Source: a virus
Strand: one strand, 5' to 3'
Virus record (IMG/VR): IMGVR_UViG_3300031720_000002
Location: 2,667-66,666 of that record
Length of the DNA: 64,000 nt
Positions 564 through 60,559 of this stretch are shown here, in pieces (positions within the stretch are counted from its first letter, which is position 1; each line of letters opens with the position of its first letter). The translations under genes were made by a program, and so were the position numbers. The notes under the pieces were generated by a model. It saw only the letters and a program-made list of their open reading frames with translations, did not search any database and was not told the origin of the DNA.

Positions 564-779
564 ATGATGAAACGACAGACACCACTTCACGAGATTCTAC
601 GTCAGCGGCGTGTTGACCTTGTCATCACGCAGCAAAAGCTCGCCGCTAAAATGGGCGTCGCGCAGAGCATGGTCTCTGATTGGGAATCCGGACGTGTTTC
701 CCCTTACTACGATAACATTGTGAAGTGGACGACAGCACTCGGCATCACACTCGTCCCTACCCTCACGGAGTGGCTGTGA
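564..779 (+). CDS. XRE-family HTH transcriptional regulator
   Basis: ITQQKLAAKMGVAQSMVSDWESG HTH signature; GGAG RBS at 556-559; TGGTAGGGT extended -10 at about 490. Confidence 0.85.
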   Translation: MMKRQTPLHEILRQRRVDLVITQQKLAAKMGVAQSMVSDWESGRVSPYYDNIVKWTTALGITLVPTLTEWL

Positions 780-1840
780 CACGTATCGCACTCATCACCA
801 CGACCATCAACGTCCCAACGGTGCTCACCCAGTGGGCCAAGTCAGGAATGATTAGCGATGACATCATCATCGTCGCAGGTGACCAAAAGTCTCCACACCG
901 TGAGATTGTTGACCTACTCGCCGCAATCGAGCGCGAGACTGGCGTCGTTGGGATATACAGCCCACCAAAGATGCAGGACCTCTGGGCTATCTCGGAGAAG
1001 ATCGGCTGGAACTGCATTCAGCGTCGTAACATCGCGCTACTCGAGGCGATGATGTATAACCCCCAGTACATCCTCACGATCGATGACGACAACGCGCCTA
1101 CATCAGGCTCCCAGGTCACACAGCTCGTTGACATCATGGAGCACCGTATCACGGGCTATGAGTCCGCGCACAGTCAGGCCATCAGCACGAACACAGGGTG
1201 GTACAACCCGGGACGACAGTGCCTCACTGATCATCTTCGTCCCGTCGTCCACCGCGGGTTCCCGTTGTCCCAACGGTTCGTCGCGCCGCTCATCACGCAC
1301 ACGAAGATGGCGCCCGTTGGTGTCGCTGCGATGTTGTGGACGGGTGAGCCCGACATCGACGCGGTGGAACGCATCGCGGTGCGACCCAATGTGACGCGCA
1401 TCGGTCGTCCGAACTTCGTTCTCACTCCCGGCACGTGGGCGCCATTCAACACGCAGGCGACGATGGTTCGCGGTGACCTCGCTCCCGCACTGTTCATGTG
1501 GCCCCACGTCGGTCGGTACGACGACATCTGGGCTAGCTATGTCTACCGCAAGGTCGCAGACAAGCGTGGCTACGGTGCGTATTACGGTCACCCCGCGGTG
1601 CACCAGGACCGCAACGAGCACGACCTCGTGAAGGATCTCGAGCAGGAGATCTTCGGAATGCGGTGGAACGAGTCGATCATCCGCCTCATCCAGGACGTGA
1701 ACCTCGATCCCGACGCCGACGTGATTAGCGACGTCACTCGAATCTTCGCCGATCTCGTCATGCTCGCGCATCCTCTTCCCGACGAGACGAAGTACGCGCT
1801 TGGCGCATGGATCGATGATGTGGAGGCCATTAATGGGTAA
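776..1840 (+). CDS. GT75/RGP-STELLO-like protein (NDP-sugar pyranose/furanose mutase-like)
   Basis: Motifs ITTTIN, AGDQKSP, RRNIA, TIDDDN, HRGFP, GEPDIDA, PFNTQ, GRYDDIW, HQDRNEHDLVKDL; GTG start overlaps the HTH stop (GTGA). Confidence 0.75.
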   Translation: MTRIALITTTINVPTVLTQWAKSGMISDDIIIVAGDQKSPHREIVDLLAAIERETGVVGIYSPPKMQDLWAISEKIGWNCIQRRNIALLEAMMYNPQYILTIDDDNAPTSGSQVTQLVDIMEHRITGYESAHSQAISTNTGWYNPGRQCLTDHLRPVVHRGFPLSQRFVAPLITHTKMAPVGVAAMLWTGEPDIDAVERIAVRPNVTRIGRPNFVLTPGTWAPFNTQATMVRGDLAPALFMWPHVGRYDDIWASYVYRKVADKRGYGAYYGHPAVHQDRNEHDLVKDLEQEIFGMRWNESIIRLIQDVNLDPDADVISDVTRIFADLVMLAHPLPDETKYALGAWIDDVEAING

Positions 1841-3152
1841 GATCGTCGGCTACGGTAAGCTCGGGCGCTCGATGCCCCTCACGCTGGAGAAGTGCGCGAA
1901 TCTTGGTGGCGACGTCGAGATGGTCGCAGTGGTGAAGGAGCTCGCACTTCGCCATCCCGACGACACGTTCCTCTTGCTCGGTCGCAACACTGGCGAGATT
2001 CCTACGAAGGTCGGAATGCCGGCGAACGTCGTCAATCCGTGGGCCGAGTGGGGTTGGTCAGAGCGTCTTCTCCGTGAGGGAACACCGATCAGGAAGAAGT
2101 ACGCGATCAACCCGAATGGCTCGAACCTCGCGGTGCAGGGCCACATCGAGATGCGTGAACTCTTCCGTGACATCACCGAAAAGACGTTCGTCAAGTGTGA
2201 TGGTCACGTCTTCTGGGTCGGTCAGCACGGCTCAACGAACACGCCAGTGCCAAAGATCGAGGACATGTCCATCCTCACGAAGCCGCACGACTGGTGCGCG
2301 TACTACGCGTCGCACATTCTCCTGGGCGTCAACGCTTGGCGTGATGCACACCCAGACAAGGACGTCGTCTGGCTCAACGCTGACGCCCGTAACAAGCACA
2401 AGATGCGGGATCTCAAGCACAAGCTCATCAATCCCATCCTCACCCAGTACACCTTCTCCCACAACCTCAAGCACGAGCAGTACGACGGCACGCCGCCCAT
2501 CACTGGCGCTGTGCACAACATCTACTCGCGCCTCGAGGTCAATGGCCTCGCACCCGGGACGCCGTTTGGTGACCTCATTACGTACAACCCATCGCCCAAC
2601 TTCCGCAAGTACCGCTTCGGCATGTTCATCAACGAGGCACGCGCCATTGGCGTGAAGGCGGGCATGGATCGTCTCTCTGTGATGAAACAGTGGGTGCTGC
2701 CGCTCATCGAGAACAACAGCGAGGAGAACCCCCACTGGATTCATGGCACGTGGAGTCCCCAGTCGCAGTCAGAGCTTGGCTTCGAGATCAATCCCGCGCC
2801 GTGGGATCAGTATTATCCGATGCTCAACGACACGTTGTGCACGTTCACGACGCCGTCCAGTGGCTCCCACTGGGCGACTGCAAAGCCGTGGGAAGCGTTC
2901 GCTGGTGGAACGATCTGCTTCTTCCACCCAGACTACGACAAGCAGGACAACATCCTGCATGACGCGCATCCCAACCTCCGTGAGTGGCTGCGCGTGAAGA
3001 CTCCCAAGGATCTCAAGACACGTGTCGCTGCCGTGACGGCCAACGCGTCCACTGCGAGCTGGCTCATTCAGCGACAGCGTGAGCACTTTGTGCGAGCCAT
3101 TGAGGATAAGCGGTATCTCAAGACCATCGAGGAGATGATCTGGAATGGGTAA
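1833..3152 (+). CDS. GT-B-like glycosyltransferase, putative DNA-modifying
   Basis: N-terminal GYGKLGRS...GGDVE; C-terminal YYPML...TTPSSGSHWATAKPWEAFAGGTICFFHPDYD donor-binding-like motif; GGAGG RBS; lies between sugar enzymes and a dNTPase. Confidence 0.6.
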   Translation: MGKIVGYGKLGRSMPLTLEKCANLGGDVEMVAVVKELALRHPDDTFLLLGRNTGEIPTKVGMPANVVNPWAEWGWSERLLREGTPIRKKYAINPNGSNLAVQGHIEMRELFRDITEKTFVKCDGHVFWVGQHGSTNTPVPKIEDMSILTKPHDWCAYYASHILLGVNAWRDAHPDKDVVWLNADARNKHKMRDLKHKLINPILTQYTFSHNLKHEQYDGTPPITGAVHNIYSRLEVNGLAPGTPFGDLITYNPSPNFRKYRFGMFINEARAIGVKAGMDRLSVMKQWVLPLIENNSEENPHWIHGTWSPQSQSELGFEINPAPWDQYYPMLNDTLCTFTTPSSGSHWATAKPWEAFAGGTICFFHPDYDKQDNILHDAHPNLREWLRVKTPKDLKTRVAAVTANASTASWLIQRQREHFVRAIEDKRYLKTIEEMIWNG

Positions 3153-4065
3153 GCGAGCACTCGTGACCGGCGCTGCCGGGTTCGTCGGACGACACATGAC
3201 GAACCACCTTCACAGTCAGGGATGGGACGTCGCACGGTGTGACATCGTTGGTCCAATGGCGTGGACCATGCACGACTTCAACGATGTGACGCGGTGGAAC
3301 GACATCCGCTACGACATCGTCGTCCACTGCGCGGCGGTGGGTGCACATCGCGCCGCCATCGATGGCCAGCCTCACACGTTCGCGAAGAACATGCGACTCG
3401 ACGCCGCGCTCTTCGACTGGGCGATCAAGACGAAGCAGCGTCGCGTCATCTACATCTCGTCCAGTGCGGCATACCCCATCGAGTATCAGAACATCCTCGG
3501 CGGCGATCACGAGATGCGCCTCGAGGAGGACATGATCGACCTCTGGCACCCACGTCTCGCTGATGGCACGTACGGCGTCACGAAGCTGACCGGAGAGCAC
3601 CTCGCTAGAGCCGCTCGAGCCGCCGGCGTACCAGTTACCGTCGTGCGACCGTTCAGTGGCTACGGTGAGGATCAGGGTCCCGATTGGCCGTTCGGAGCGT
3701 TCGTCCAGCGGATCGGCGCCGGCTTCGGTCAGTCGTCCACGAATCCGTTCGTGATCTGGGGCAGCATGAAGCAGCGACGTGACTGGATCCACATCGACGA
3801 CGTCATCCATGGCATGCTCGCCATCGCGGAGTCCAAGACGGAGGATCCCGTCAATCTGTGCACGGGCGTACCCACGTCCATGAAGGACCTCGTCATGATG
3901 ATGGCGAACGTGATGGGCTACGACGAGTTTCACCTCACCGAAGACCGCGACGCTCCGATGGGCGTGTTGAACCGTGTCGGAAGTCCTGACCGATTCTTCG
4001 AGTACTATGAACCAAAGATCACGCTCGAAGAGGGCGTGTACCGAGCGTTGTGGGGCCACAAGTGA
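3145..4065 (+). CDS. NAD-dependent NDP-sugar epimerase/dehydratase (extended SDR)
   Basis: TGAAGFVG Rossmann motif, ISSSAAY, catalytic YGVTK, RDWIHIDD. Confidence 0.92.
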   Translation: MGKRALVTGAAGFVGRHMTNHLHSQGWDVARCDIVGPMAWTMHDFNDVTRWNDIRYDIVVHCAAVGAHRAAIDGQPHTFAKNMRLDAALFDWAIKTKQRRVIYISSSAAYPIEYQNILGGDHEMRLEEDMIDLWHPRLADGTYGVTKLTGEHLARAARAAGVPVTVVRPFSGYGEDQGPDWPFGAFVQRIGAGFGQSSTNPFVIWGSMKQRRDWIHIDDVIHGMLAIAESKTEDPVNLCTGVPTSMKDLVMMMANVMGYDEFHLTEDRDAPMGVLNRVGSPDRFFEYYEPKITLEEGVYRALWGHK

Positions 4066-4067
4066 CG

Positions 4068-4433
4068 ATGGACCGTCTCGAAGAGATGCTCAAGCTGCAG
4101 GACGAACTGCAGGAGCGATACACGGGCACTTCGCCAATCGACCTCGTCGGCGAGGGTCGCAAGGACTACGTGAGGACGATGGTCCTCGCTTGCACGGATG
4201 AACTTCACGAGGCTCTCCGCGAGGTCCCGTGGAAGCCGTGGTCCGGCAACACGCTGTGGGACAAGGACAGCGAGATCAACTTCAAGCTCGAACTCGTCGA
4301 CGCGTTCCACTTCTTCATGAACCTCATGCTCGTCTCGGGCATGACGGCGGACGAGCTCTTCACTGAGTACCTTCGCAAGAACGGGATCAACCACAGTCGC
4401 ATCGATGGCGGCTACTCCAGCCCCACTGGGTGA
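4068..4433 (+). CDS. Dimeric all-alpha dUTPase/dCTPase (MazG superfamily)
   Basis: DELHEALREVPWKPW, ELVDAFHFFMNL, YLRKNGINHSR; alternative GTG start at 4062. Confidence 0.85.
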   Translation: MDRLEEMLKLQDELQERYTGTSPIDLVGEGRKDYVRTMVLACTDELHEALREVPWKPWSGNTLWDKDSEINFKLELVDAFHFFMNLMLVSGMTADELFTEYLRKNGINHSRIDGGYSSPTG

Positions 4434-4454: not shown

Positions 4455-6101
4455 ATGACTCATCGCTTTGTCGACGCGCTCGGATTCGCGGGCGGATTCA
4501 CCCTGGGTATGGTCCAAGCCGGATTCGAGCTCGTCGGCAAGCGTGAGATGAAGGGTGGTTTCGGTGTCGCCAACTGCGAGGCTAATCGCCATCTGCTGGG
4601 ACAGGGATGGAAGGCTGAGTCAGTTGATCCGACCCAGTGGAGCGTCGTGGACGCTGACGCCGTCACGGGCAACCCACCTTGCTCTGGTTTCTCAGGAATG
4701 TCAGCGAAGCACTTCCGAGGAGCCAACTCTCCCATCAATCACTGCATGTGGGCGTTCGTCGACTACGTCGCCCGCGTGAAGCCGCAGATCGCGGCGTTCG
4801 AGTCAGTGCAACTTGCCTTCACGCGTGAGGACGGCCTCGCCCTCATGCGAGCCCTCCGAACGAAACTGGAGGAAGCGACAGGTGACAGGTGGACGCTCTT
4901 TCACGTTCTACACAACGCATACAGCCTCGGCGGAGTCGCGCATCGCCGACGTTATTTTTGGGTCGCAACTCGCATCCCGTTCGGCATCGAGTGGCCTCAT
5001 CGAGACAAGCTGCCTGTGTTGGACGACGCTATCGGCGACTTGGAACATCAGCCCCAAGGCTGGGCTGCCGCACCTCTTGTGGGCAATCCTTCCTGGTGGG
5101 CCGCACCTCGCACGCGTGACGACCTTCACGTGGACGGGCACGTGTCAGTGCGTGCTCCGCTCGTTCAGCGAGTGGTTGACCTTCTGCAAGGCGTGGAGTG
5201 GAACGGCGGCGAGCACCTTGCTCGACTTGCGCGCCGCTACTATGACACGTACGGACAGTTGCCCGCTTCATGGGCAGCCACGCAGGACAAGGTCGTCGCA
5301 AACGACTTCAACCTCGGATACAACACACCCGTCAGATGGAAGGGCGACGAGCCAGCGCGTGTTATCACGGGAGCAGGTCCGATCGTGGCGTTCCATCCAC
5401 GCCTGCAGCGACCGCTGACGCACCGTGAGGTCGCTCGCGTGATGGGCTTCCCGGACACGTGGCTCATCGACCCGATCAAGAACACACCGGGTCTCGTGAT
5501 GACGTGGGGCAAGGGCATCACGGTCGACTGTGGTCGCTGGATCGGCTCGTGGATCTACGATGCACTGGATGGAGAACCGGGCAAGTACCACGGCGAACGC
5601 ATCGGTGATCGCGAGTTTCTCATCGATACCACATACGCATGGCACTTGAACCTGGTACAGTCGACATTGACGCTCAGAAGATTCCGTAAACTCATTGGAG
5701 GTAACATCATGACCGAGCCTGTTGCGGCTCCCGAGGTTCCCGTCACCGAGGGTGACGAGGCTCCCGTCGCCGAGGCCAGCACGTCGCGCGCCTCGAGTGG
5801 TCGTCCGCGTCCGCAGGCCACGCTCGAGCAGGACGCGAAGGTTCTCGAGTACCTGTCGGCGGAGGAGAACGCCGACGGCAAGACGAAGGCGGAGATCGGC
5901 ACCGCCCTCGAGCTGGCGACGAACAAGGTCTACCTCTCGCTGTGGCGCCTCGGCACGCGTGAGGGCAAGATCCACCGGACGGGCTCTGGCGCGTCCGCGA
6001 AGTGGGTGGCCGGCTCCGCTCCGGAGGTCGCTGATGACGCTGCCGCTCCTGCGGCCGACGTCGAGCAGCCCGCTCCCGCGGAGGAGCACGTCGCCATCTG
6101 A
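4455..6101 (+). CDS. Divergent C5-cytosine DNA methyltransferase homolog with in-frame C-terminal wHTH-like extension
   Basis: Motif IV GNPPCSGFS, VI FESV, VIII HRRRYF, IX LTHREVARVMGFPD, X WGKGI; leaderless start after TACTAT at 4442-4447. Confidence 0.8.
   Translation: MTHRFVDALGFAGGFTLGMVQAGFELVGKREMKGGFGVANCEANRHLLGQGWKAESVDPTQWSVVDADAVTGNPPCSGFSGMSAKHFRGANSPINHCMWAFVDYVARVKPQIAAFESVQLAFTREDGLALMRALRTKLEEATGDRWTLFHVLHNAYSLGGVAHRRRYFWVATRIPFGIEWPHRDKLPVLDDAIGDLEHQPQGWAAAPLVGNPSWWAAPRTRDDLHVDGHVSVRAPLVQRVVDLLQGVEWNGGEHLARLARRYYDTYGQLPASWAATQDKVVANDFNLGYNTPVRWKGDEPARVITGAGPIVAFHPRLQRPLTHREVARVMGFPDTWLIDPIKNTPGLVMTWGKGITVDCGRWIGSWIYDALDGEPGKYHGERIGDREFLIDTTYAWHLNLVQSTLTLRRFRKLIGGNIMTEPVAAPEVPVTEGDEAPVAEASTSRASSGRPRPQATLEQDAKVLEYLSAEENADGKTKAEIGTALELATNKVYLSLWRLGTREGKIHRTGSGASAKWVAGSAPEVADDAAAPAADVEQPAPAEEHVAI
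5709..6101 (+). CDS. Small acidic wHTH-like DNA-binding protein (internal in-frame start)
   Basis: GGAGG at 5697-5701 then ATG 5709; TGGTACAGT extended -10 at about 5653; GRPRP and KVLEYL...KTKAEIGTAL...KVYLSLWRL...GKI. Confidence 0.6.
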   Translation: MTEPVAAPEVPVTEGDEAPVAEASTSRASSGRPRPQATLEQDAKVLEYLSAEENADGKTKAEIGTALELATNKVYLSLWRLGTREGKIHRTGSGASAKWVAGSAPEVADDAAAPAADVEQPAPAEEHVAI

Positions 6102-11402: not shown

Positions 11403-12473
11403 CTACTGGCGCTGGATGGCAAGGGCCTCTGACCAGGCCTCCATCCAGCGCCATGCGTGCTTTTCGATCGTCAGTTCACTTGCTGCGGCACGTCCAGCGG
11501 CCGAGCGTTCCAGTCGATAAGCCTCGTCCGTTACGAGTCTACGGACGAGTCTGTACCAGTCCTTGGGTCGCTCAGCGACGTCGCCGATTCCGTACTGCTT
11601 GTTGAGCTCGATGTACGCGGGACTTGGCGACACGACACTGGGCACACCGGCCGCCGCGTACTCCAGAGGCTTGAGCCACGACTTGGCTCGATTGAATGCG
11701 GATGAGGCGAGGGGCGCAAGTCCAACACCGAGCATTCCCAGTGCGGAGATCCAGTACTCGAGCTGGATTGGGCCAGTGGCCTCAAAATCCTCACGTCGCT
11801 GGAGGCGAAAAGCTTGACGTATTCCTGTGTCAGGTCCGATGACCCGGAACCGGTGACCCTCGCCCACCAGTCGGTTAACCGTGTTGCCCAGTGCCGGAAT
11901 GTCGTCAGCATGCGAGTGAATCCCTCCTCCCCATCCAAAGATGGGCGAGTCTTCGTGATCCACATCGAGCGCCTGTGAAGGCACGTAGTTGGGGATCTTC
12001 CGTGCGACATGTCCGTACTTCTTGGCGAGCGCATCCGTCGTAGTGACGACCATCGTTGCGCGACTGAACGCGTACTCTGCCCACTCCCACGAGTGATCAG
12101 CTGCCGGATGTCCTGGACGCTTCTTTGGGTGCAGCGCGAAGTACATGGGGTTCGTCATCGAGATGTTGTGGAGATCGTCGTCCACATCGATGACGACAGC
12201 AGTACCCTTCGCCGTGATGTACGGCACGATCTGCGCGACGTGTCTGTTCGTCACACGCTGCAGCACGATGACGTCGTACTGCTCGGGAAAGCGGATGTGT
12301 TCGCCCGTGAGGTTGCCCGTCGACTCATCCACCTCAGCGGAGAACATCGCGTGACGATCCATTGGGTTGATGATGTCGATGTCGTGGCCATCGAGTTGCA
12401 GCTGCATCGCCGGCCAGATGAGACGATAGTACCCACATCCGAAGATGTCAGCGGGAAAGACTCCGATCTTCAC
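11403..12473 (-). CDS. Glycosyltransferase (GT-B/GT4-like)
   Basis: GCGYYRL, DVDDDL, GLAPL...FNRAKSWLKPLEYAAAGVP. Confidence 0.88.
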   Translation of the reverse strand: MKIGVFPADIFGCGYYRLIWPAMQLQLDGHDIDIINPMDRHAMFSAEVDESTGNLTGEHIRFPEQYDVIVLQRVTNRHVAQIVPYITAKGTAVVIDVDDDLHNISMTNPMYFALHPKKRPGHPAADHSWEWAEYAFSRATMVVTTTDALAKKYGHVARKIPNYVPSQALDVDHEDSPIFGWGGGIHSHADDIPALGNTVNRLVGEGHRFRVIGPDTGIRQAFRLQRREDFEATGPIQLEYWISALGMLGVGLAPLASSAFNRAKSWLKPLEYAAAGVPSVVSPSPAYIELNKQYGIGDVAERPKDWYRLVRRLVTDEAYRLERSAAGRAAASELTIEKHAWRWMEAWSEALAIQRQ

Positions 12474-13063
12474 CAGCGATCCGGCCTTCCACTTGTGTTC
12501 CCACTGTCGTGATGCCAGTACCACGTCTTCGCGACCACGTGATGGATCTTTGCGCCTTTCTCGAGACACCCCAACGTAAAGGACCAATCTTCACCCCACC
12601 GCTGGCCGTCCACGAGCTCACCATTCTCCGTGAACGCCGCGAATCCCACTTCACGAGCGAGCTCTGTGCGAACCAGCGTTGTGACAGTCGTCTGGCGAGG
12701 GATCTCGTCACGCCAAGGTTCCAAGTAGTGACCGATGGGAAATGGGTCACAACCGGGAGGACTCGTCTCAAACCACGAGTACACGTAGTCCGCTTGATGC
12801 GCCACTGCCGCGTTATGTAGCGTATCCAAGTGAGTGGGCATGAACTCATCATCATCATCCAAGAACGCGACCCACTGGGTGTCGACCATCTCGAGTGCGC
12901 GCTGTCGTGTGGCTCCAGCACCCTGTTTAGCGGAGTCGATAGCGATTGCCAGACCTGCCGCCGGATGTGTCTGGAGGAGGACTGATGCCACCGCGCGCTG
13001 CAGTAGATGTGACCGGGGCGGGATGGTCGGGATCGCAACGGTGATCCCGGGCTTCAGAGCCAC
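12470..13063 (-). CDS. Glycosyltransferase (GT-A/GT2)
   Basis: TVAIPT, LQRAVASV, AFLDDDD, GEDW. Confidence 0.9.
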   Translation of the reverse strand: MALKPGITVAIPTIPPRSHLLQRAVASVLLQTHPAAGLAIAIDSAKQGAGATRQRALEMVDTQWVAFLDDDDEFMPTHLDTLHNAAVAHQADYVYSWFETSPPGCDPFPIGHYLEPWRDEIPRQTTVTTLVRTELAREVGFAAFTENGELVDGQRWGEDWSFTLGCLEKGAKIHHVVAKTWYWHHDSGNTSGRPDRW

Positions 13064-13623
13064 ATCGACCTCGCGATCCAGAACTGATACGTGTAGTAGG
13101 GCTGATTGAACGAATCCACCCAGGTGGGTCGCCAGTCTGTCTCGTGGAACATCTCAGAGATGCCCCACAGATCCCAGCCCCAGTAGTGTTCGTAGTTCTT
13201 CTCCGTGTCGAACTCGCCCAGTGGTGTGGTGACGCAGATCCACTTGAATCGCTCAGACGCAGCACGGAGGAAGTCCTCAGGATCGTCCAAGTGCTCGAGT
13301 GTCTCAGAGCAGATGAGGAGATCGCCACTCACCTTGCGCACGTTCTTCGCGATGTCACCAACGAAGTGAAGATGCTCAGCCGGGACGAGATCACCGAAGT
13401 GCCGTGTCTTCACGCCAGAGATCTCACGCAGGATTCGTCCATCACCACACGAAAGATCATACGCACGATCGATGTCACCGTGCAGTTTGAGGAACTCGTT
13501 GAGGCGAGTGATCGTCCAGTTCACACGGTTCGTATGCTCTTCCCATTGCGATGAATCATACGGCTTACTGTAGATCTCTCGCAGGGTTGCGGCGTCGTGC
13601 ACGTGACGCAGACGTTTGATCAC
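13054..13623 (-). CDS. Class I SAM-dependent methyltransferase
   Basis: YDLSCGDG, ICSETLEHLDDP. Confidence 0.85.
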   Translation of the reverse strand: MIKRLRHVHDAATLREIYSKPYDSSQWEEHTNRVNWTITRLNEFLKLHGDIDRAYDLSCGDGRILREISGVKTRHFGDLVPAEHLHFVGDIAKNVRKVSGDLLICSETLEHLDDPEDFLRAASERFKWICVTTPLGEFDTEKNYEHYWGWDLWGISEMFHETDWRPTWVDSFNQPYYTYQFWIARSMWL

Positions 13624-14243
13624 TTCGTGCCTGCCGGCACAGCGTGGATCACCTGGAACATGCCCGTCGTCTCGTGTCGCACGACGTTGAAACCCGCCTG
13701 CACCATGAGCGCGCGGTAGCCGTCCTGGTCCCACGCCCAGGCGTGACACTCGTCGTGCGATCCCGCGTGCTCAGTGAACGGCGATGAAGCGACGAGCTGC
13801 ACACCATCGCCACGATCACGGATCTTCTTGACGAAGCCATGAGGATCCGTGAGGTGTTCGAGGACCTCGGTCATCACGTACACGTCAGCATCACCAATGC
13901 CGTCAAACTCGTTGACGAAGTCGAGCCCGTATGCCTTGACGTTTCGCTCGTCCCAACCCTGCTTATTGCTCGGCTGGAAATCGAAGCCGTAAGCGTTCAC
14001 CCAGGGGAGACGACTGATGAGTGACAGGAGGCCACCATCGCCACAGCCCAGGTCGATGACAGTGCATGGCACAGTGACACGAGTCTCCACACGATCGACA
14101 GCCTCGCGCACGAAGTCCGCGGCGAGCTGGAGGCGACCCTGATGGATACCCTGCTCGAGGTGTGGTGCACGCTCACGGTGCTCATGGAACGCGTACGTCG
14201 AGACGTGCGCCACGTCGTCCACAAAGAGCTTGTACTCAGCCAC
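13620..14243 (-). CDS. Class I SAM-dependent methyltransferase
   Basis: VIDLGCGDGG, MTEVLEHLTDP. Confidence 0.88.
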   Translation of the reverse strand: MAEYKLFVDDVAHVSTYAFHEHRERAPHLEQGIHQGRLQLAADFVREAVDRVETRVTVPCTVIDLGCGDGGLLSLISRLPWVNAYGFDFQPSNKQGWDERNVKAYGLDFVNEFDGIGDADVYVMTEVLEHLTDPHGFVKKIRDRGDGVQLVASSPFTEHAGSHDECHAWAWDQDGYRALMVQAGFNVVRHETTGMFQVIHAVPAGTK

Positions 14244-14940
14244 AGATCAGTCCTCGCAACTTCTGCTTGTCGGCGGCCCACTGGTCGCCGTTCACGTAGG
14301 CATTGAACGCGGTCTCGTCAGCGACGTACTGCGACCCAGCGTTCACTTCGATGTAGCGATCATCCCACGCCGACTTGCCGGCGATGGGATGCATGTGCTC
14401 GATGATCGTACTCTGCAGGTAGTAGAGACGACCAAGTCCTTCGTGGCCCCACAACTTCCACGTGTTGTCGAGGTACATGTGCACGAGCCCAGGCGGCACC
14501 ATGTACCCAAGTGTCTTGATGATGTCCGCAGTCATGAAGACTGCCGTGGGAAGGTTTGGTCCCTGAATGAGATCGTTCCCGTAGACGATTGACGTGCCTT
14601 GTGACTTGACGACATCCTCGATCGTATGATCCCAGTGTGGCGTGCGTGGACGATGATCGTCGCCCATGAAACCGATGATGTCGTGTGACAACGTTCCTGC
14701 GCGCATGACGCGCGACATCGCCACCGCGTTCAGCGTGCCAGCGAGACGAAGACGTGGTCCGATGACCAACTGAAAGCGATCGTCATGCACGATGCTGAGG
14801 ATCGCTTTGTACTTCTGCAGCTCAGGGTCATCGTCATCCACAGCGACGAGAAGCGTCGCATTCGTGTCTGCGTCGTCCCACGCCTGCATGAGGTCGACGA
14901 TGTTATTGGGTCGACCTCGAGATGGCACAATAACCAGCAT
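14236..14940 (-). CDS. Glycosyltransferase (GT-A/GT2)
   Basis: VIVPSRGRP, VDDDDP, FMGDDH, HMYLDN, IEHMHP; leaderless after TATAAT (minus strand, 14948-14953). Confidence 0.88.
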   Translation of the reverse strand: MLVIVPSRGRPNNIVDLMQAWDDADTNATLLVAVDDDDPELQKYKAILSIVHDDRFQLVIGPRLRLAGTLNAVAMSRVMRAGTLSHDIIGFMGDDHRPRTPHWDHTIEDVVKSQGTSIVYGNDLIQGPNLPTAVFMTADIIKTLGYMVPPGLVHMYLDNTWKLWGHEGLGRLYYLQSTIIEHMHPIAGKSAWDDRYIEVNAGSQYVADETAFNAYVNGDQWAADKQKLRGLICG

Positions 14941-33571: not shown

Positions 33572-36500
33572 TCAGGCAGACGTGTCCACGTCAATGGCGT
33601 TATCACTGGGTGGAATCACACGGAGTCGCACAGTGACCTTCGTATTGAAGTGTTGACTGTTATCGGGAGCCTTGTTTCCCTCGATGATCTCAACGACACG
33701 ATAGTTGAGGTTAGCACCGAGGAGCATCTCCTCCTCAGAGGGATGCTGTGAGAACGTATCGACGAACGCCATTGGCGTGCCCGGTGGACACTCGATGACA
33801 AAGTTAATTTGACCACTAAACGCACTCTTACCACCGATGCTGGCAGAGAAGAACGCAGCCTGGTGGAAGTCTTCACCGAGGTGACTTTTGACTTCCTCCA
33901 CACTGCTCCATCCCGGGAACCACCCATTACCACGGTGAAGGACGATTGGCTCGAGGCTAAGCTTCATACCCTTCTGCGCGTTCATGACGTCCTTGTGGAT
34001 CTGCGCACTCGCACCACTGTAGCCACGCAAGTAGTCGTTCATCGGGTCATAACTACTACCCGTATACTTACGCAACGCAGTTTTCTGCGTCTCGTTCATC
34101 GGACCCTGTTGCGCGTTCCAATTCGCCGTCATCTGCTTGGCCTTAGCCTCAGTGATGACGGGGAAGTCCTTGCTATTCGACTTCGTCCAGTCGTAGCCCT
34201 TACTCGGGTCGAAGTCCTCAACCTGCTGAAGTGGCGGGCCGACCTTCTCGTCGATCGGCGTATTCGAAGGATGCGCGTACGACGTCCCATACCCACTAGA
34301 GCCGTACGACGAAGACGAGGACGTTGACGCTGGTGACCACGTACCGGCCTTGATCTCCGCAGCCTTCTTCTTGCCGCTTGGAGTGTTGAGCCAGTCAGTG
34401 ACTTTCTGCATGAACTTATGCTCGTCAGCGACGCCGAACTTCTTCGCGCCTTCAGCATCCACATTCGTCAGGATCGCGCCTGGCGTCATGTGAGCGTTAG
34501 CTTTTGACTGCTGCACTGCGTTCCAGTAAATGTCCTCAGGCTTATCCGTGAGGTACTTACCGTACGACGCACCCTTGAACGAGTTGTACAGCGACGTGTG
34601 ATTCGCTAGCGCATCAACCGATGGATCGCCCAGTGCTTCCTCGGGAGTGATGCTTGGACCAGCCGTCGTCGACGAAACCTTCTTCGCGGCCTTCTTCGCG
34701 GCCTTCTTCGTCACTGAGTATGCAGAGAACGGCGGTGCGACCTTCTTCGCGCCGGTCTTCTTCGCCAAACTCGGCGTGAGTGTGGGAATCGCCGGGTTGA
34801 GCTCCTTGAACGCCTTCTGCCCGTTGGGAGTCTTCAGCCACTCCTTGACCTTGTCAGAGTAGGCATTCACCTTGCCGGTCTTGGCCTGCTCCACCATGTC
34901 GAGCGCCTTGAGCAGCTCAGCATCAGACATGCCAGCGATCTTAGGATCGCCGCCCATCTTTGCCTTCGCTGCGTGCATGCTGTGATAGATCTTACTCGCA
35001 GACCAGGCGGGCGAGACTTTCTCTGCCTTGAAGTGGTGGTAGAACTGCGACTTCTGAAGATACGACAGATCCATCGCAGTGGGAGGCGGAGCAACTGACG
35101 CAGGGTACAGCTCCTTCATCGTCTCGAGCAGGTCGTCAACCTGCGCCTTCGAGATGATGCCAGCGTTGTACTTCTCGATCATCTGCTTATACTGCGCGTT
35201 CCCGACGTCGTTGAGCTCGGGATGCGCATCGGGCAGAGGTGCAGGCGACTTCACGACCTTCATGAAGTGCGCGTGCGCATTGTCACTGAGGTCAGACAGG
35301 TACATGTCAAGAACGTCTTGCTCATCAACACTCAGTGAGTGCCACTTCTCGGGAGTGAGGTTCATGATGGCGTCCGCGATCGCTGCGGGCGTGAAGCCAT
35401 CACCCTCACTATCAGCGAAGATGAGATCGTCGACAGTCACCTTCGTGTTGATGACCGGCCCAAGGTCAGGCGTGACGTCAGTCATCTCGTGCACGACGAG
35501 AGGCTTATTCGCGCTGATGACCATCTTCGGGACAAGAAGATCGCCGTTGTTTGTGGACTTAACCAACGAAGTGTGCTCGGCGTCGGAGATCACACCGGCG
35601 TTCAGCAACATCTTAAGACTCTGAAGGATCTTCGTGGGAGTCTCAGTCGACAACTTCGAGGGATCGAGGACAGAGGGTGAGGCGAGATCAGCGGTGTCTG
35701 GTCCGTTCTTCACAAGCTGAAGTTGCTGATACGCTTCCTTTTGCGTCATCATACCCTTGGTGTACTGCTCCCACAGGGTGTTGACCTCACCCATCTTGCC
35801 TGGACCATACTGGCCAATGTCCCACATACTGTCATACTGAGACTGTGTCGGTTCGTTGATCGGCCCGGCGAGGGACGGACCAGGCTCCTTCTTCCACGAC
35901 GCAGACGCTGGGACGTTCTGGCCAACGGCTGCTTTGCCCTCATCCCACGTACCATCGGGGTTCTTCTTGTGAAGCTGAACGACACCTACACCAGCGAAGT
36001 CCTTCTTAGAGAGCTTGTACTTCCCATTGGGCGAGTAGAGATCCTCACCCGTCTTAAGCACGTGCTGAAGAGCATCCTCGGTCTGCAGTGGAAAGTTACT
36101 GTCACCACTCGTGTCCGGGAGATCAGGCAGCGATGGCACATCGATGGGCTCGTTCTTCTTCCACTTCAAGCCCTTCGGCATGTCCTCGTCGGTGAAGAGT
36201 GTCTCTGGCTTATACCATCCACCGTGAGGGGCCTTCGACCACACCGTGACGTTGCCACTCGACTTGCCCTTGGTCAGAAGGTACTTCCCGTTTGTGGAGT
36301 ACATCTTCTCGCCATTGGCCTTGACGAGGTTGTACGCGCCCTTACTGCCCTGTGTGTCAAGCAACCCCACGGGCGCACTTGGCGCATTCGTCGTAGGAAC
36401 ACTCGGTGCGACAGCGCTCCACGTAATACCAACGCCTTCTTGCGTCTTAATTGACGCCTTAAGATCGTCAGCATTAAAGTGCTTATTAGTTTCGTCCCAA

Positions 36501-57780: not shown

Positions 57781-58683
57781 ATGACCATCTTCGTCCTTGA
57801 GGGACCTGATGGCGCAGGGAAGTCGTACCTTGCGCAGCAGATTCAGCAAGAGCTGCCCGACACCCTCATCCTTCGGCAGGGACCACCCACGCCGGGCGAG
57901 GATCTGCTCGAGAAGTACCTCCGACCCATCGAGAACATCTTCGTCAATGGGACGCGACAAACATCTCACGTCGTGATGGACCGTTGGCACGTGGGTGAGC
58001 TGGTGTATGGTCCACTGCTGCGCGGCAAGTCGATGCTGACACGCGCACAGATGAACTACATCGACATGGTCCTCGGCACGTTCGATGCGCGATTCTACTT
58101 CATGTCTGCGTCGCTGGACACACTCCTCAAGCGGTACGACAAGCGCGGTGATGAGCTCATCAGTCGTGACCAGATCGAGCACATCAAGGACGAATACACA
58201 GATCTTCTCGTGCCGCTTTACCACTGGGAAGTCGTGTCGTTCATGCGTCTTCCATTCGTGATGCCACCCGTGCGTCACGTACAGGCGCCCAACGCGGGTC
58301 GCTACATCGGTCCACCCGGACCTAAGGTCCTCCTACTGGGCGACGTTCGCGGCAACGAGAAGTTCACGTTCCCGTTCGTGCCATACCAGGCGACATCTGG
58401 TCACTGGCTCATGACCGCGATGGCGGACGCGCACGTGGATCACATGCTCGTCGGCGTCATGAACGCCTGTGAGATGACACCCGACGAACTCAGCACCCAG
58501 TGGGACGCGCTTGGGCAGCCACCCGTCATCACGCTCGGTCGCAACGCACAACGAGCATGGAAGACCGTGGGTGACTGGAACCCAAACAAGGATCACTACC
58601 TCCATCACCCCCAATATGCGAGGAGGTTCAATCACAGGAGCACGTTCGAGTACGGACAGACGATCAAGGATGTGATGAAGTAA
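57781..58683 (+). CDS. dNMP kinase fused to a UDG-superfamily domain
   Basis: EGPDGAGKS P-loop, DRWHVGELVYG; C-terminal KVLLLGD...PFVP...SGHWL...VITLGRNA...HHPQY. Confidence 0.8.
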   Translation: MTIFVLEGPDGAGKSYLAQQIQQELPDTLILRQGPPTPGEDLLEKYLRPIENIFVNGTRQTSHVVMDRWHVGELVYGPLLRGKSMLTRAQMNYIDMVLGTFDARFYFMSASLDTLLKRYDKRGDELISRDQIEHIKDEYTDLLVPLYHWEVVSFMRLPFVMPPVRHVQAPNAGRYIGPPGPKVLLLGDVRGNEKFTFPFVPYQATSGHWLMTAMADAHVDHMLVGVMNACEMTPDELSTQWDALGQPPVITLGRNAQRAWKTVGDWNPNKDHYLHHPQYARRFNHRSTFEYGQTIKDVMK

Positions 58684-59220: not shown

Positions 59221-60108
59221 ATGACTGAAATCGTACTGCTCGACATGAGCGAGTACCCCGTGGTGCTCCGTCGTCTCCTCCAGTTCGGGGAGCGGCGGAG
59301 CCCTCGTGGTTTGGCGACGCTGGATCTCAACTTCACCTCGATCAATCTCGTGCAGCCTCAGAAGGCCCTACCCCTGGGCATCGGGCGCAAGCTCAACCCG
59401 GCCATCGCGGCAGTCGAGGCCATCCAGCTAATCGCCGGCGTTAGTGACCCTGAGCTCGTCCTCAGACTTGCTCCGCAGTTCGAGCGGTATACCGACTGGA
59501 ACGAGGACGGCACAACCGAGCGGACGTTCTGGGGCGCGTATGGCGACCGCATCAAGATGCAGGTCCACTGCGCGGTCCAGAAGCTGACGGCCGATCCATC
59601 GACACGTCAGGCCATCGTCACCTTGTGGGACCCGTGGATGGACAACGTCCAAGGCAAGCACGACTACCCCTGCACCATCGCACTGCAGTTCTGGCTGGAC
59701 ACTGATGGCCTCCTCAGCATGAACACCATCATGCGGTCGAACGACGCGTGGCTCGGTCTCCCGTACGACGTGTTCCAGTTCACCCAGTTGCAGGCGAGTG
59801 TAGCACACGCGCTTCACACACAGCCTGGCGTGTATCGTCACACCACACTGTCGCTTCACCTCTATGAGACGAACTTTGACGAGGCGCGCGCACTCGTCAA
59901 GGATTACGTACCGCAGGCCAATCGTGAGGTGTTCCGGAACCTCTGGCTTCCCACTGAGTCGATCGGCCACCCTGGCCAGTCATTCAACGACATCATGCGA
60001 CGCGCGCAAGCGATCATGCGCAACGAGGAACTGTACGGCGAGACCCCGAGTGAAAGCTGGTACCGTGACCTCCTCCACCCCAAGGCCTCCACGTCTAACG
60101 TGGGATGA
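59221..60108 (+). CDS. Thymidylate-synthase homolog, dCMP-type (hydroxymethylase-like)
   Basis: GAYGDR, TRQA, YPCT (Cys151), MRSND, GLPYD (Asp183), SLHLYE. Confidence 0.85.
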   Translation: MTEIVLLDMSEYPVVLRRLLQFGERRSPRGLATLDLNFTSINLVQPQKALPLGIGRKLNPAIAAVEAIQLIAGVSDPELVLRLAPQFERYTDWNEDGTTERTFWGAYGDRIKMQVHCAVQKLTADPSTRQAIVTLWDPWMDNVQGKHDYPCTIALQFWLDTDGLLSMNTIMRSNDAWLGLPYDVFQFTQLQASVAHALHTQPGVYRHTTLSLHLYETNFDEARALVKDYVPQANREVFRNLWLPTESIGHPGQSFNDIMRRAQAIMRNEELYGETPSESWYRDLLHPKASTSNVG

Positions 60109-60559
60109 AGTCCGCGCGCTACAGGCGCGGCAGATCGCAAGTCGTTCACTCTGTGAACGTGACCAAGTCGGCGCCATCATCGTCAACCGCCAGCAGCGGA
60201 TCGTCGCCGAGGGATACAACGGACCACCCGCCGGCTTCGTACACGGCAACGCAGGTTGCTCGTCGTGGTGCTCACGCGCCATGTTTGCAGCGTCGACCGG
60301 TATCTTGCAGTCGGACTACCAAGACTGTCCCGCACTCCACGCTGAGGCTAACGCGCTAATGGTGTGTGACCGCAAGGACCGTGAGGGCGGTACGATCTAC
60401 GTCACGAGCGGCGTGTGTTGGGGCTGCGCCAAGTTGATCGCGAACTCTGGCCTCTCAACGGTCGTCGTCGACGCGACGACGTACGAGAAGAATCATCGCA
60501 ACACAGAGAAGTCGTACAGCTTCCTCGAGCAGTGTGGGATCACCGTTGTCACCGGATGA
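60065..60559 (+). CDS. dCMP deaminase
   Basis: RSLC...VGAII, GYNG, HAEANA, CWGC. Confidence 0.92.
   Translation: MTSSTPRPPRLTWDEVRALQARQIASRSLCERDQVGAIIVNRQQRIVAEGYNGPPAGFVHGNAGCSSWCSRAMFAASTGILQSDYQDCPALHAEANALMVCDRKDREGGTIYVTSGVCWGCAKLIANSGLSTVVVDATTYEKNHRNTEKSYSFLEQCGITVVTG

What the first reader, a model, noticed from the sequence alone, without database searches (positions are those of the whole stretch)
4455..5600. C5-MTase homolog with a rewired cofactor pocket: motif X GN->GK
Seen: the catalytic PC (Cys76), Glu of motif VI (ESV instead of ENV) and RxR are kept, but motif I reads DALGFAGG instead of DLFxGxGG. Motif X reads WGKGI (AAG at 5511-5513, Lys353) where the family has IGNAV. 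Established: the engineered Asn->Lys change at this motif X position in M.MpeI (N374K) makes the enzyme use carboxy-SAM and form 5-carboxymethylcytosine. Inference: a natural enzyme that uses an anionic or non-SAM cofactor, or acts on already-modified cytosine. No CmoA-like synthase is evident in the window.
Basis: partly seen in the sequence, partly recalled or inferred. Interest (0 to 1): 0.85.

Follow-up and report, generated by a model that had tools for sequence, protein, structure and literature searches.

The report
Phage cytosine-methylase look-alike with lysine pocket
A phage of high-GC bacteria carries a DNA cytosine-methylase look-alike that keeps its chemistry-doing residues but has a rebuilt cofactor pocket with an always-conserved lysine, and it travels with genes that replace cytosine by sugar-decorated hydroxymethylcytosine, so it is probably an undescribed DNA-modification step.

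Summary
ORF 4455-6101 (548 aa, longer than the stated end at 5600) is a C5-cytosine-methyltransferase homologue. It has PPC (Cys76), ESV, RRR, motif I DALGFAGG and motif X WGKGI. Lys353 (AAG 5511-5513) aligns with HhaI Asn304, the HaeIII GN and Arg350 of the natural carboxymethyltransferase SpCmoX.

The Lys is not chance: 120 of 120 close homologues have it. Among 151 representatives at 50% identity there are 137 K, 3 R, 3 other, 7 gaps and no Asn.

The carboxy-SAM reading is unlikely:
- No CmoA was found in 10 of 10 phage genomes of the family, while the S-B43 control was positive.
- CmoA-like genes are rare in the host phylum: 0 of 301 genomes over the cut-off, 3 of 301 near-full matches.
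- The adenosine-contact positions are not conserved.

The gene instead sits in a conserved actinophage module: glycosyltransferases (one with a T4 beta-glucosyltransferase-like fold), a MazG-type pyrophosphatase directly upstream, and an Asp-type thymidylate-synthase homologue elsewhere (8 of 8 genomes). Long family members are fused to class-I methyltransferase domains (9 of 20) and once to a 5-hmdU-DNA-kinase helical domain.

My best reading is an enzyme acting on C5-substituted (hydroxymethyl) cytosine in DNA. The chemistry is not shown. This scan noted the same family earlier on other DNA. Cultured Gordonia and Micrococcus phages carry it, so it is testable.

The parts
4455..6101 (+). C5-cytosine-methyltransferase-fold gene, 548 aa: MTase-like core (about residues 1-400), low-confidence linker, C-terminal winged-helix domain
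   Evidence: AF2 model has mean pLDDT 78, and Foldseek top hits are DNMT1, M.HaeIII and ZMET2.
4473..4496 (+). Motif I variant DALGFAGG (residues 7-14): canonical Phe replaced by Leu, first Gly by Phe
4674..4685 (+). Motif IV PPCS (Cys76 nucleophile; Ser77 where canonical enzymes have Gln)
   Evidence: C 128 of 130, S 117 of 130; SpCmoX also has PPCS
4800..4808 (+). Motif VI ESV (Glu116 kept, Asn replaced by Ser)
   Evidence: E 142 of 143, S 137 of 143
4944..4952 (+). Motif VIII R-R-R (Arg164, Arg166)
5511..5513 (+). AAG = Lys353, at the motif X position of HhaI Asn304 and SpCmoX Arg350
5697..5711 (+). In-frame GGAGG (5697-5701), 7 nt, then ATG (5709-5711, Met419) ahead of the winged-helix part: possible separate start
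   Evidence: helices and strands at 454-519 in the model; one homologue carries PF01978, P0126 carries TrmB/MarR
4050..4433 (+). MazG/dimeric-dUTPase-type NTP pyrophosphatase, 21 nt upstream of the MTase-like gene
   Evidence: PF08761 E 2.3e-14; phrog_173; present just upstream in 34 of 36 related loci and in Kurnik, Sixama, DSL-LC01 and GodonK
1836..3152 (+). GT-B glycosyltransferase. Its best structural matches are T4 beta-glucosyltransferase.
   Evidence: no Pfam or PHROG hit; Atlas lead; AF2 mean pLDDT 82; Foldseek ranks 1-5 are T4 BGT, E 5e-8 to 3e-7; present in 33 of 36 loci
725..1840 (+). RGP (reversibly glycosylated polypeptide)-like protein
   Evidence: PF03214 E 1.6e-11; 29 of 36 loci
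3145..4065 (+). NAD-dependent sugar-nucleotide epimerase/dehydratase
   Evidence: PF01370 E 1.9e-36; 17 of 36 loci; closest cellular relatives in Streptomyces, 45% identity
59221..60108 (+). Thymidylate-synthase homologue with Asp where TS has Asn (LPYD versus VPFN): probable dCMP hydroxymethylase
   Evidence: best PDB sequence hit is CMP 5-hydroxymethylase MilA (5b6d), E 9e-19; the alignment to TS 3kgb shows the Asp/Asn column; present with Asp in 8 of 8 genomes
60104..60559 (+). dCMP-deaminase-like ORF overlapping the end of the TS homologue (true start not determined)
   Evidence: TIGR02571 E 7e-19
57781..58683 (+). P-loop kinase, thymidylate-kinase-like N-terminus
11403..12587 (-). Glycosyltransferase
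   Evidence: phrog_7162 E 1.4e-32; 20 of 36 loci
13054..13749 (-). Class-I methyltransferase (Methyltransf_23); not a core partner
   Evidence: found in 1 of 5 other genomes; no BLAST similarity to S-B43 CmoA or to the fused class-I domains
14236..14940 (-). Glycosyltransferase
   Evidence: phrog_14945 E 3e-53

Best explanation
The gene encodes a C5-cytosine-methyltransferase-fold enzyme that is a fixed part of an actinophage module for replacing cytosine by glycosylated 5-hydroxymethylcytosine. It most likely works on C5-substituted cytosine in phage DNA rather than transferring methyl or carboxymethyl to plain cytosine.

Proposed mechanism:
1. The enzyme flips the base out, and Glu116 and Arg164/166 hold it.
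2. Cys76 adds to C6.
3. The pocket beside C5 is widened (Gln to Ser77, Asn to Ser117) and given a positive charge (Asn to Lys353). It holds or protonates the oxygen-bearing group on the 5-methylene, so that group can be exchanged or tailored.
4. Accessory domains or neighbours (class-I methyltransferase, glycosyltransferases) finish the decoration.

Shown: the fold, the retained catalytic residues, the register and invariance of Lys353, the non-canonical motif I, the lack of a Cx-SAM source, and the conserved context and fusions.

Inferred: the substrate (hmC or glycosyl-hmC), the role of Lys353, and the reaction itself.
For: 1. Catalytic residues are nearly invariant in 151 diverse representatives: C76 128 of 130, E116 142 of 143, R164 143 of 147, R166 147 of 147. 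The motif X position is K 137, R 3, N 0.
2. Positions that align with the SAM adenosine contacts of canonical enzymes are not conserved. The motif I Phe position reads Q 65, H 18, Y 10, E 10 and others. The first Gly reads F 80, L 37, Y 7. The motif II Glu is kept in 91 of 129. The motif III Asp position reads P 33, D 31, E 13. Kurnik and Sixama lack the motif II acid.
3. The nearest canonical relative in the phage collection (Halfgib1 dcm) has DLFAGAGG, PPCQ, ENV and GN, so all four changes are family-specific.
4. Context: MazG lies directly upstream in 34 of 36 IMG/VR loci, the BGT-like GT is in 33 of 36, and the RGP-like gene in 29 of 36. The order GT-GT-MazG-MTase-WhiB is also seen in Micrococcus phage Kurnik, Gordonia phages Sixama and GodonK, and the metagenome-assembled DSL-LC01.
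5. An Asp-type TS homologue is present in 8 of 8 genomes examined. TS homologues were also found in all 13 Gordonia records and in DSL-LC01.
6. The neighbouring GT's best structural matches are T4 beta-glucosyltransferase, an enzyme of hmC-DNA.
7. Fusions among the 20 longest representatives scanned: class-I SAM-methyltransferase domains in 9, a 5-hmdU-DNA-kinase helical domain (PF18723, E 5e-40) in 1, HTH domains in 2.
8. No relative was found in one genome each of 185,579 prokaryote species, so the family appears confined to virulent phages.
Against: - No assay, no ligand model and no DNA chemistry exist for any member.
- The motif X loop (residues 349-354) has pLDDT below 50 in the model, so the position of Lys353 in space is not shown.
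- The PF18723 fusion is a single protein on a 5.6-kb contig, and this genome has no PF18723 match. A phosphate leaving group is therefore not supported here.
- The close subfamily of the window keeps Glu31 (nearly invariant) and mostly Asp58, so SAM binding is not excluded for this protein.
- N-to-K mutants of ordinary enzymes still methylate with SAM.
- Full replacement of C by hmC is inferred from genes only.
- One distant member (L051) lacks the MazG/GT neighbours within 10 kb.
- Other actinophages (Glutamicibacter phage Montesquieu, Brevibacterium phage LuckyBarnes) have a related TS homologue and did not appear among the MTase hits.
Confidence: 0.42

Rival explanations
1. Ordinary SAM-dependent 5-methylcytosine methyltransferase with unusual motifs. 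It would methylate residual unmodified cytosines of phage DNA (a mop-up of what escapes hmC replacement) or specific sites, to evade restriction.
For: PF00145 match over the gathering score. The fold and motif order are those of M.HaeIII/DNMT1. The Gly-rich motif I core (G13 125 of 127) and, in the window's subfamily, Glu31 are kept. M.MedI-N377K gives over 99% protection with SAM (PMC12015181 passages). Published annotations call the homologues methyltransferases.
Against: Lys or Arg, never Asn, in 140 of 144 residues at motif X, over a family reaching down to about 25-35% identity. The adenine-contact positions are not conserved. The protein scores 43.3 bits against a 100.65-bit cut-off of NCBIfam dcm. 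The tight linkage to the hmC/glycosylation module has no obvious reason under this reading. The recurrent fusions are to non-DNA-type class-I methyltransferases.
Confidence: 0.22
2. A Lys-type natural carboxymethyltransferase, a CmoX analogue. It would use carboxy-SAM to make 5-carboxymethylcytosine, with Lys353 binding the carboxylate as in M.MpeI N374K.
For: Lys353 aligns with SpCmoX Arg350 and HhaI Asn304. A positive charge is conserved (K 137, R 3). PPCS is shared with SpCmoX. The published CmoX search demanded SPPC and R350, so it would have missed a Lys type (PMC12783734, Results read). cmo5U is reported in BCG tRNA (PMC5114619 passages).
Against: CmoA (TIGR00740) was found in 0 of 10 family phage genomes. 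The same search hit S-B43 CmoA (115.6 bits) next to CmoX, and the paper counts 4257 CmoA for 5615 CmoX. In 301 sampled genomes of the phylum of Streptomyces G008, 0 were over the cut-off and 3 had near-full matches of 132-152 bits; one of those three is the unpublished genome G013. Five named actinobacterial genomes scored at best 24 bits. CmoA/CmoB are reported mainly from gamma- and one other class of Proteobacteria and were not found in BCG (PMC6063277 passages). SpCmoX keeps canonical FAGGGG, NEF, DDI and ENV, which this family does not. Only weak fragments of SpCmoX match the family HMM. No asparagine-synthetase-like ligase appeared in the Pfam scans of 36 window ORFs.
Confidence: 0.07
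3. A host-directed enzyme. Phage DNA is shielded by glycosyl-hmC, so a SAM-independent MTase-fold enzyme would attack only unmodified cytosine of host DNA. Lys353 would donate a proton to C5 in place of the methyl group, which promotes hydrolytic deamination to uracil or covalent trapping, and so shuts off or degrades the host genome.
For: Catalytic Cys/Glu/Arg are kept while the cofactor pocket is not. A basic residue sits at the methyl-donor side. The gene co-occurs with a pathway that removes plain C from phage DNA. From recall, not from a call: C5-methyltransferases deaminate cytosine when SAM is lacking, and fungal RID is an MTase homologue linked to C-to-T mutation.
Against: Purely inferential. 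The fusions to class-I methyltransferases and to a hydroxymethyl-pyrimidine DNA-kinase domain fit DNA decoration better than host attack. No nuclease or UDG-inhibitor link was examined.
Confidence: 0.12
4. A non-catalytic or scaffold role. The domain would only bind and flip the (modified) cytosine, presenting it to glycosyltransferases or to the fused methyltransferase domains.
For: Fusions with tailoring-type domains and HTH domains; degenerate members such as P0244 with altered PC and ES motifs.
Against: The nucleophilic Cys is kept in 128 of 130 representatives and Lys in 137 of 144. That argues for chemistry, not only binding.
Confidence: 0.08

Closest known systems
Bacterial and phage DNA cytosine-C5 methyltransferases (M.HaeIII, M.HhaI, DNMT1 catalytic domain; Pfam PF00145)
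   Same: Fold, motif order, target-recognition domain between motifs VIII and IX, and the catalytic Pro-Cys, Glu and Arg-x-Arg.
   Different: Motif I is x-G-F-A-G-G instead of F-x-G-x-G-G; PCQ becomes PCS; ENV becomes ESV; GN becomes GK. The protein scores below the NCBIfam dcm cut-off. It occurs only in phage genomes with an hmC-type module.
SpCmoX, the natural DNA cytosine C5-carboxymethyltransferase of Synechococcus phage S-B43 (PDB 8YF3; PMC12783734)
   Same: A basic residue at the HhaI Asn304 position and Ser after the catalytic Cys (PPCS); phage-encoded; part of a hypermodification route.
   Different: Arg rather than Lys. SpCmoX keeps the canonical SAM-adenosine motifs and ENV. It sits beside CmoA and an amide ligase; this family has neither. 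Sequence relation is only fragmentary. Hosts are cyanobacteria versus Actinobacteria.
Engineered M.MpeI N374K and M.MedI N377K
   Same: Asn-to-Lys at the same motif X position. As cited in PMC12015181 and PMC12783734, the Lys is said to salt-bridge the Cx-SAM carboxylate.
   Different: These are single mutants of ordinary enzymes and still use SAM. Here the Lys comes with three further pocket changes, and no Cx-SAM source is present.
T4-type cytosine replacement system (dCTPase, dCMP hydroxymethylase, dNMP kinase, dCMP deaminase, glucosyltransferases). The comparison is from recall.
   Same: This genome has counterparts of each: MazG, Asp-type TS homologue, P-loop kinase, deaminase, BGT-like GT.
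   Different: To my recollection T4 has no C5-methyltransferase-fold enzyme. Here it is a conserved member of the module.

Membership tests
DNA cytosine-C5 methyltransferase (PF00145 / NCBIfam TIGR00675 dcm) | Profile match over the curated threshold | tested here: inconclusive
   Pfam 62.6 bits against a cut-off of 22: met. NCBIfam dcm 43.3 bits against 100.65, N-terminal half only: not met.
DNA cytosine-C5 methyltransferase | Catalytic Pro-Cys (motif IV), Glu of motif VI, Arg-x-Arg of motif VIII | tested here: met
   PPC 74-76, E116, R164/R166; nearly invariant in the family.
DNA cytosine-C5 methyltransferase | Motif I F-x-G-x-G-G and motif X G-N (the SAM pocket) | tested here: not met
   L-G-F-A-G-G and G-K. 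Across the family there is no Asn at motif X, and the Phe position is variable.
DNA cytosine-C5 methyltransferase | SAM-dependent formation of 5-methylcytosine | not testable with these tools
   Needs an enzyme assay or nucleoside mass spectrometry.
CmoX carboxymethyltransferases (as defined in PMC12783734: SPPC motif plus Arg350) | SPPC and Arg at the HhaI Asn304 position | tested here: not met
   NPPC and Lys353. The position is basic, and the Ser after Cys is shared.
CmoX carboxymethyltransferases | A Cx-SAM source (phage or host CmoA) | tested here: not met
   0 of 10 family phage genomes, with a positive control in S-B43. 0 of 301 sampled genomes of the host phylum were over the cut-off and 3 of 301 had near-full matches, one of them in the unpublished genome G013. 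0 of 5 named actinobacterial genomes.
CmoX carboxymethyltransferases | Neighbouring AMP-forming amide ligase (CmoY) | tested here: inconclusive
   No such family appeared among the 36 window ORFs scanned against Pfam. Not every ORF was scanned.
CmoX carboxymethyltransferases | Formation of 5-carboxymethylcytosine | not testable with these tools
   Needs LC-MS.
T4-type hmC replacement and glycosylation module | dCMP-specific TS homologue (Asp at the TS Asn position), NTP pyrophosphatase, kinase, DNA glucosyltransferase-like GT | tested here: met
   Sequence and fold evidence only; the DNA chemistry was not tested.

The most novel reading that the evidence does not exclude
This would be a SAM-independent enzyme of the C5-methyltransferase fold. 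It would use Cys-C6 covalent catalysis to exchange or tailor the oxygen substituent of 5-hydroxymethylcytosine in DNA, with Lys353 acting as acid or anchor for the leaving or appended group. That would be the first natural use of this fold to derivatise hmC, and it would define a new cytosine hypermodification in actinophages.
Probability: 0.28. Interest if true: 0.9.

Novelty: new variant of a known kind. Interest (0 to 1): 0.72.

Why it matters
The Asn of motif X is one of the hallmark residues of C5-methyltransferases. Engineered Lys and natural Arg at this spot both redirect the enzyme to another alkyl donor.

This is a large phage-only family: 1249 representatives at E up to 0.001 and 168 at up to 1e-30. 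In it, Lys is fixed together with three other pocket changes, no known alternative donor is available, and the gene is locked to a hydroxymethylcytosine-glycosylation module.

Either a new cofactor, a new substrate (hmC-DNA) or a new reaction is implied. Any of these would widen the known chemistry of DNA base modification, and could give new tools for hmC labelling or sequencing.

Cultured, non-pathogenic systems exist (Gordonia terrae phages, Micrococcus phage Kurnik). The question can therefore be settled with nucleoside mass spectrometry and phage knock-outs.

Tried and rejected
- Near-identity DNA search in the phage collection: no match.
I got context from the search for related loci and the genome search instead.
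- The family is not in cellular genomes: 37 pattern matches, none a relative. Prophage and host assignment by that route failed.
- The class-I methyltransferase at 13054-13749 as a possible CmoA substitute was rejected. It is found in only 1 of 5 other genomes. It has no similarity to S-B43 CmoA or to the fused class-I domains. Its best NCBIfam hit is E 0.008.
- The route methyltransferase, then TET, then glycosyltransferase: no Tet_JBP match in the genome, but that search had no positive control.
- A DNA kinase of the 5-HMUDK type in this genome: no PF18723 match.
- The distant member L051 gave an uninformative neighbourhood: 1 of 10 ORFs had a Pfam hit, a Gly-rich domain.
- An alignment of 18 distant members was too diverse to scan with. 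Of two single-protein scans, one found nothing and one found one locus.
- Literature searches found no paper on this Lys-type family or on DNA modification in its cultured phages. Supplements of PMC12783734 could not be opened and might list sequences bearing on the CmoX set.
- Not used: complex prediction, read laying, the look-up of sequencing runs and the RNA tools.
Full report
**What is there.** The window is 64,000 of the 66,666 bases of one virus record that CheckV rates complete. The ORF at 4455-6101 (+) encodes 548 residues, so the finding's end at 5600 truncates it. Pfam places residues 5-363 in PF00145 (E 5.5e-17) and PHROGs in phrog_116 'DNA methyltransferase'. NCBIfam dcm matches only the N-terminal half, at 43.3 bits against a 100.65-bit cut-off. 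An AlphaFold2 model built on 20 homologues has mean pLDDT 78. It shows the methyltransferase core, a disordered linker (about 416-450) and a helical/strand C-terminal domain at 454-519. Foldseek's best PDB matches are DNMT1, M.HaeIII, ZMET2 and M.HhaI.

**The observation.** Codon 5511-5513 is AAG.
- A 20-sequence family profile searched against PDB sequences aligns 'twGkGitvdC' with HaeIII 'miGNAVPVN' and HhaI 'qfGNSVVIN'. Lys353 therefore takes the place of the motif X Asn, which is HhaI Asn304 as named in PMC12783734.
- I took the natural carboxymethyltransferase SpCmoX from the S-B43 genome (MN018232.1). Its numbering matches the paper (F25, E47, F48, D69, C98, R350).
- In a MAFFT alignment, Lys353, the Lys of five other family members, the Arg of P0244, SpCmoX Arg350 and the Asn of Haloferax virus Halfgib1 dcm share one column.
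- In motif I the family reads L-G-F-A-G-G where HaeIII reads F-S-G-A-G-G. The canonical Phe and the first Gly are both replaced.

**Is it more than chance.** Among the 120 best homologues (49-100% identity) Lys353 is invariant, as are PPCS, ESV, R164 and R166. An exhaustive HMMER search of 1.84 billion cluster representatives gave 1249 hits at E up to 0.001, 305 at up to 1e-10 and 168 at up to 1e-30. Counts in the best 150 plus the query:

| Position | Residues seen |
|---|---|
| Motif X (Lys353) | K 137, R 3, S/Q/M 1 each, gap 7, no Asn |
| Cys76 | 128 of 130 |
| Ser77 | 117 of 130 |
| Glu116 | 142 of 143 |
| Ser117 | 137 of 143 |
| Arg166 | 147 of 147 |
| Motif I Phe position | Q 65, H 18, Y 10, E 10 and others |
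| Motif I first Gly position | F 80, L 37, Y 7 |
| Motif II Glu | E 91 of 129 |
| Motif III Asp position | P 33, D 31, E 13, A 12 |

The last four rows are the positions that align with the adenosine contacts of canonical enzymes, and they are poorly conserved. That these positions contact SAM is taken from the SpCmoX description (F25, E47, F48, D69) and from recall for HhaI. The nearest canonical relative in the phage collection, Halfgib1 dcm, has DLFAGAGG, PPCQ, ENV and GN. The four changes therefore define this family.

**What is known.** PMC12783734 (outline, Results and Discussion read) shows the following:
- SpCmoX makes 5-carboxymethylcytosine from Cx-SAM supplied by a phage CmoA.
- Arg350 replaces HhaI Asn304 and touches the carboxymethyl group.
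- R350N is dead.
- 5,615 candidate CmoX were collected by demanding SPPC and R350, and 4,257 CmoA were found on their contigs.

A Lys-type family with NPPC would not pass that filter; I could not see the supplements. PMC12015181 (passages) reports that M.MedI-N377K still gives over 99% protection with SAM, and that M.MpeI-N374K is thought to salt-bridge the Cx-SAM carboxylate. The original M.MpeI N374K paper was not read; it is known to me only through these citations.

**Test of the Cx-SAM reading.**
- TIGR00740 (CmoA) finds nothing at E up to 0.01 in the window's genome, in five complete related IMG/VR genomes, or in two further IMG/VR genomes, Micrococcus phage Kurnik and Gordonia phage Sixama. 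That is 0 of 10.
- In the same call it finds S-B43 CmoA (115.6 bits, E 2.5e-34) just upstream of CmoX, so the search works.
- For hosts, the phage epimerase's best cellular relatives are in Streptomyces (45% identity).
- Five named actinobacterial genomes (two Streptomyces, one Mycobacterium, two Actinomadura) give at most 24 bits.
- In 301 genomes sampled from the phylum of Streptomyces G008, none passes the 193-bit cut-off and three have near-full-length matches of 132-152 bits. One of the three is the unpublished genome G013. Because the proven S-B43 enzyme scores only 116 bits, these three may be real CmoA-like genes. The gene is therefore rare, not absent.
- PMC6063277 (passages) likewise places CmoA/CmoB mainly in Proteobacteria and finds none in BCG. 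PMC5114619 (passages) reports cmo5U in BCG with only weak candidate homologues.
- SpCmoX matches the family HMM only in two short fragments, and it keeps the canonical SAM motifs that this family lacks.

I therefore rate the Cx-SAM reading at about 0.07.

**Context.** Thirty-six IMG/VR loci encode relatives at 44-86% identity. Counts by tblastn with the window's proteins, within 10 kb:

| Neighbour | Loci with it (of 36) |
|---|---|
| MazG-type gene, directly upstream of the methyltransferase-like gene | 34 (the two exceptions are truncated loci) |
| ORF 1836-3152 homologue | 33 |
| RGP-like gene | 29 |
| Epimerase | 17 |
| DUF932 | 25 |
| WhiB | 22 |
| Family-A polymerase | 20 |
| SNF2 helicase | 26 |

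- In the annotated phage collection the family occurs in 15 records. These are eight Gordonia phages (GMA2, Sixama, Mareelih, Forza, BlueNGold, Boopy, GodonK, Phendrix), Micrococcus phage Kurnik and the metagenome-assembled Actinomycetia phage DSL-LC01 (PMC10611076 passages).
- In Kurnik, Sixama, GodonK and DSL-LC01 the order is again glycosyltransferase(s), MazG-like, small ORF(s), methyltransferase, WhiB. DSL-LC01 adds a UDP-galactopyranose mutase and a class-I methyltransferase directly upstream.
- All four keep G-K at motif X.
- No relative was found in one genome each of 185,579 prokaryote species.

**The hmC pathway.**
- The ORF at 59221-60108 is a thymidylate-synthase homologue. Its best solved relative by sequence is the CMP 5-hydroxymethylase MilA (E 9e-19). 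It reads LPYD where TS reads VPFN.
- The same Asp is present in the homologues of five related complete genomes, Sixama and Kurnik, giving 8 of 8 with the window.
- That Asp selects cytosine nucleotides is recalled (T4 gp42 versus ThyA), not tested.
- A dCMP-deaminase-like ORF overlaps its end, and a P-loop kinase lies upstream.
- ORF 1836-3152 has no Pfam or PHROG hit. The protein Atlas pointed to phage glycosyltransferase clusters, including one that is 100% T4-Gluco-transf. An AF2 model (pLDDT 82) has T4 beta-glucosyltransferase as Foldseek ranks 1-5 (E 5e-8 to 3e-7, TM 0.48-0.63), ahead of generic GT-B enzymes.

Together this is the gene set of a T4-like replacement of C by glycosylated hmC. 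This is an inference from genes. No TET/JBP was found (no positive control).

**Fusions.** I scanned 20 of the longest family representatives against Pfam:
- Nine carry a second, class-I SAM-methyltransferase domain: Methyltransf_23 in 3, FkbM-type Methyltransf_21 in 5, FtsJ-like in 1.
- One (P0245, 919 aa, motif X A-K-A, PPCS, ESV) carries the helical domain of 5-hmdU DNA kinases (PF18723, E 5e-40).
- Two carry HTH domains.
- One has an intein.
- One has a weak NUMOD3 match.
- Six show nothing more.

The kinase-domain fusion is a single case, and this genome has no PF18723. The fused class-I domains are not the usual DNA amino-methyltransferase families. I read them as tailoring enzymes, but this is inference. 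The window's own Methyltransf_23 gene is not detectably related to them.

**Interpretation.**
- The enzyme keeps everything needed to flip a cytosine-type base and attack C6. It has lost the signature of the SAM pocket and has fixed a positive charge beside C5.
- Two canonical polar residues near C5, the Gln after Cys and the Asn of ENV, are both Ser. That these line the C5 side of the pocket is recalled from HhaI work. SpCmoX shares the Gln-to-Ser and Asn-to-basic pair.
- No Cx-SAM source is evident, and the gene is locked to an hmC-glycosylation module. The simplest reading is that the group accommodated next to C5 is the oxygen-bearing 5-substituent of hmC (or its sugar), not an incoming carboxymethyl.
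- From recall: C5-methyltransferases can exchange the hydroxyl of hmC for thiols, or remove it, when SAM is absent. This makes the chemistry plausible.
- I give this reading 0.42, an ordinary SAM methylase 0.22, host-directed deamination or trapping 0.12, a scaffold role 0.08 and Cx-SAM 0.07.
- Points against my reading are listed in full in the Against line. The main ones are the low model confidence of the motif X loop, retention of Glu31 in the window's own subfamily, and the complete absence of chemical data.

**Earlier notes of this scan.** Searches show that the same family was noted on other genomes. One follow-up (e1-5360548) reached a similar verdict. I treat these as leads only. I checked here the MazG coupling, the Asp-type TS with its deaminase, and the in-frame Shine-Dalgarno plus ATG before the winged-helix part (GGAGG 5697-5701, ATG 5709).

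**Novelty.** Nine literature searches found no description of a Lys-type family or of modified DNA in its cultured phages. The published papers on GMA2 and DSL-LC01 call the gene a methylase in passing. I class it as a new variant of a known kind. It is of high interest because cultured, harmless systems allow a direct test.

Noticed in passing
window 5697-5711: In-frame GGAGG, 7 nt, then ATG (Met419) just before the winged-helix C-terminal part of the methyltransferase-like ORF. The HTH part might also be made as a separate protein. Shorter homologues (about 394-400 aa) and the cultured-phage homologues lack this part.
   Followed up: partly
window 1836-3152: A protein with no Pfam, PHROG or NCBIfam hit whose AF2 model matches T4 beta-glucosyltransferase best. 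The annotated start at 1800 is probably too early: homologues start at the MGK... corresponding to 1836.
   Followed up: yes
window 59221-60559: An Asp-type thymidylate-synthase homologue (closest solved relative is CMP hydroxymethylase MilA), with a dCMP-deaminase-like ORF overlapping its 3' end in another frame.
   Followed up: partly
window 33572-38560 (-): A 1662-aa protein with a phage Mu F-like domain near the N-terminus and an ADP-ribosyltransferase exoenzyme-like domain (PF03496, E 2.5e-15) at the C-terminus. It may be a virion-delivered ADP-ribosyltransferase.
   Followed up: no
window 31146-33554 (-): An 802-aa protein with a weak 2H-phosphoesterase / anti-CBASS Acb1-like match (PF23474, E 4e-6) at residues 105-227.
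   Followed up: no
window 3145-4065: A sugar-nucleotide epimerase whose closest cellular relatives are in Streptomyces genomes (45% identity). This hints at a Streptomyces-like host.
   Followed up: partly
P0236 (family member, 752 aa): A family member interrupted by an intein (Hint_2, LAGLIDADG_3 and Intein_splicing domains) inserted right after the catalytic PPC motif.
   Followed up: no
L052 6434-6946 (Actinomycetia phage DSL-LC01): A 170-aa class-I SAM-methyltransferase gene lies directly upstream of the Lys-type methyltransferase homologue, and a UDP-galactopyranose mutase lies in the same block. It has no similarity to S-B43 CmoA.
   Followed up: partly
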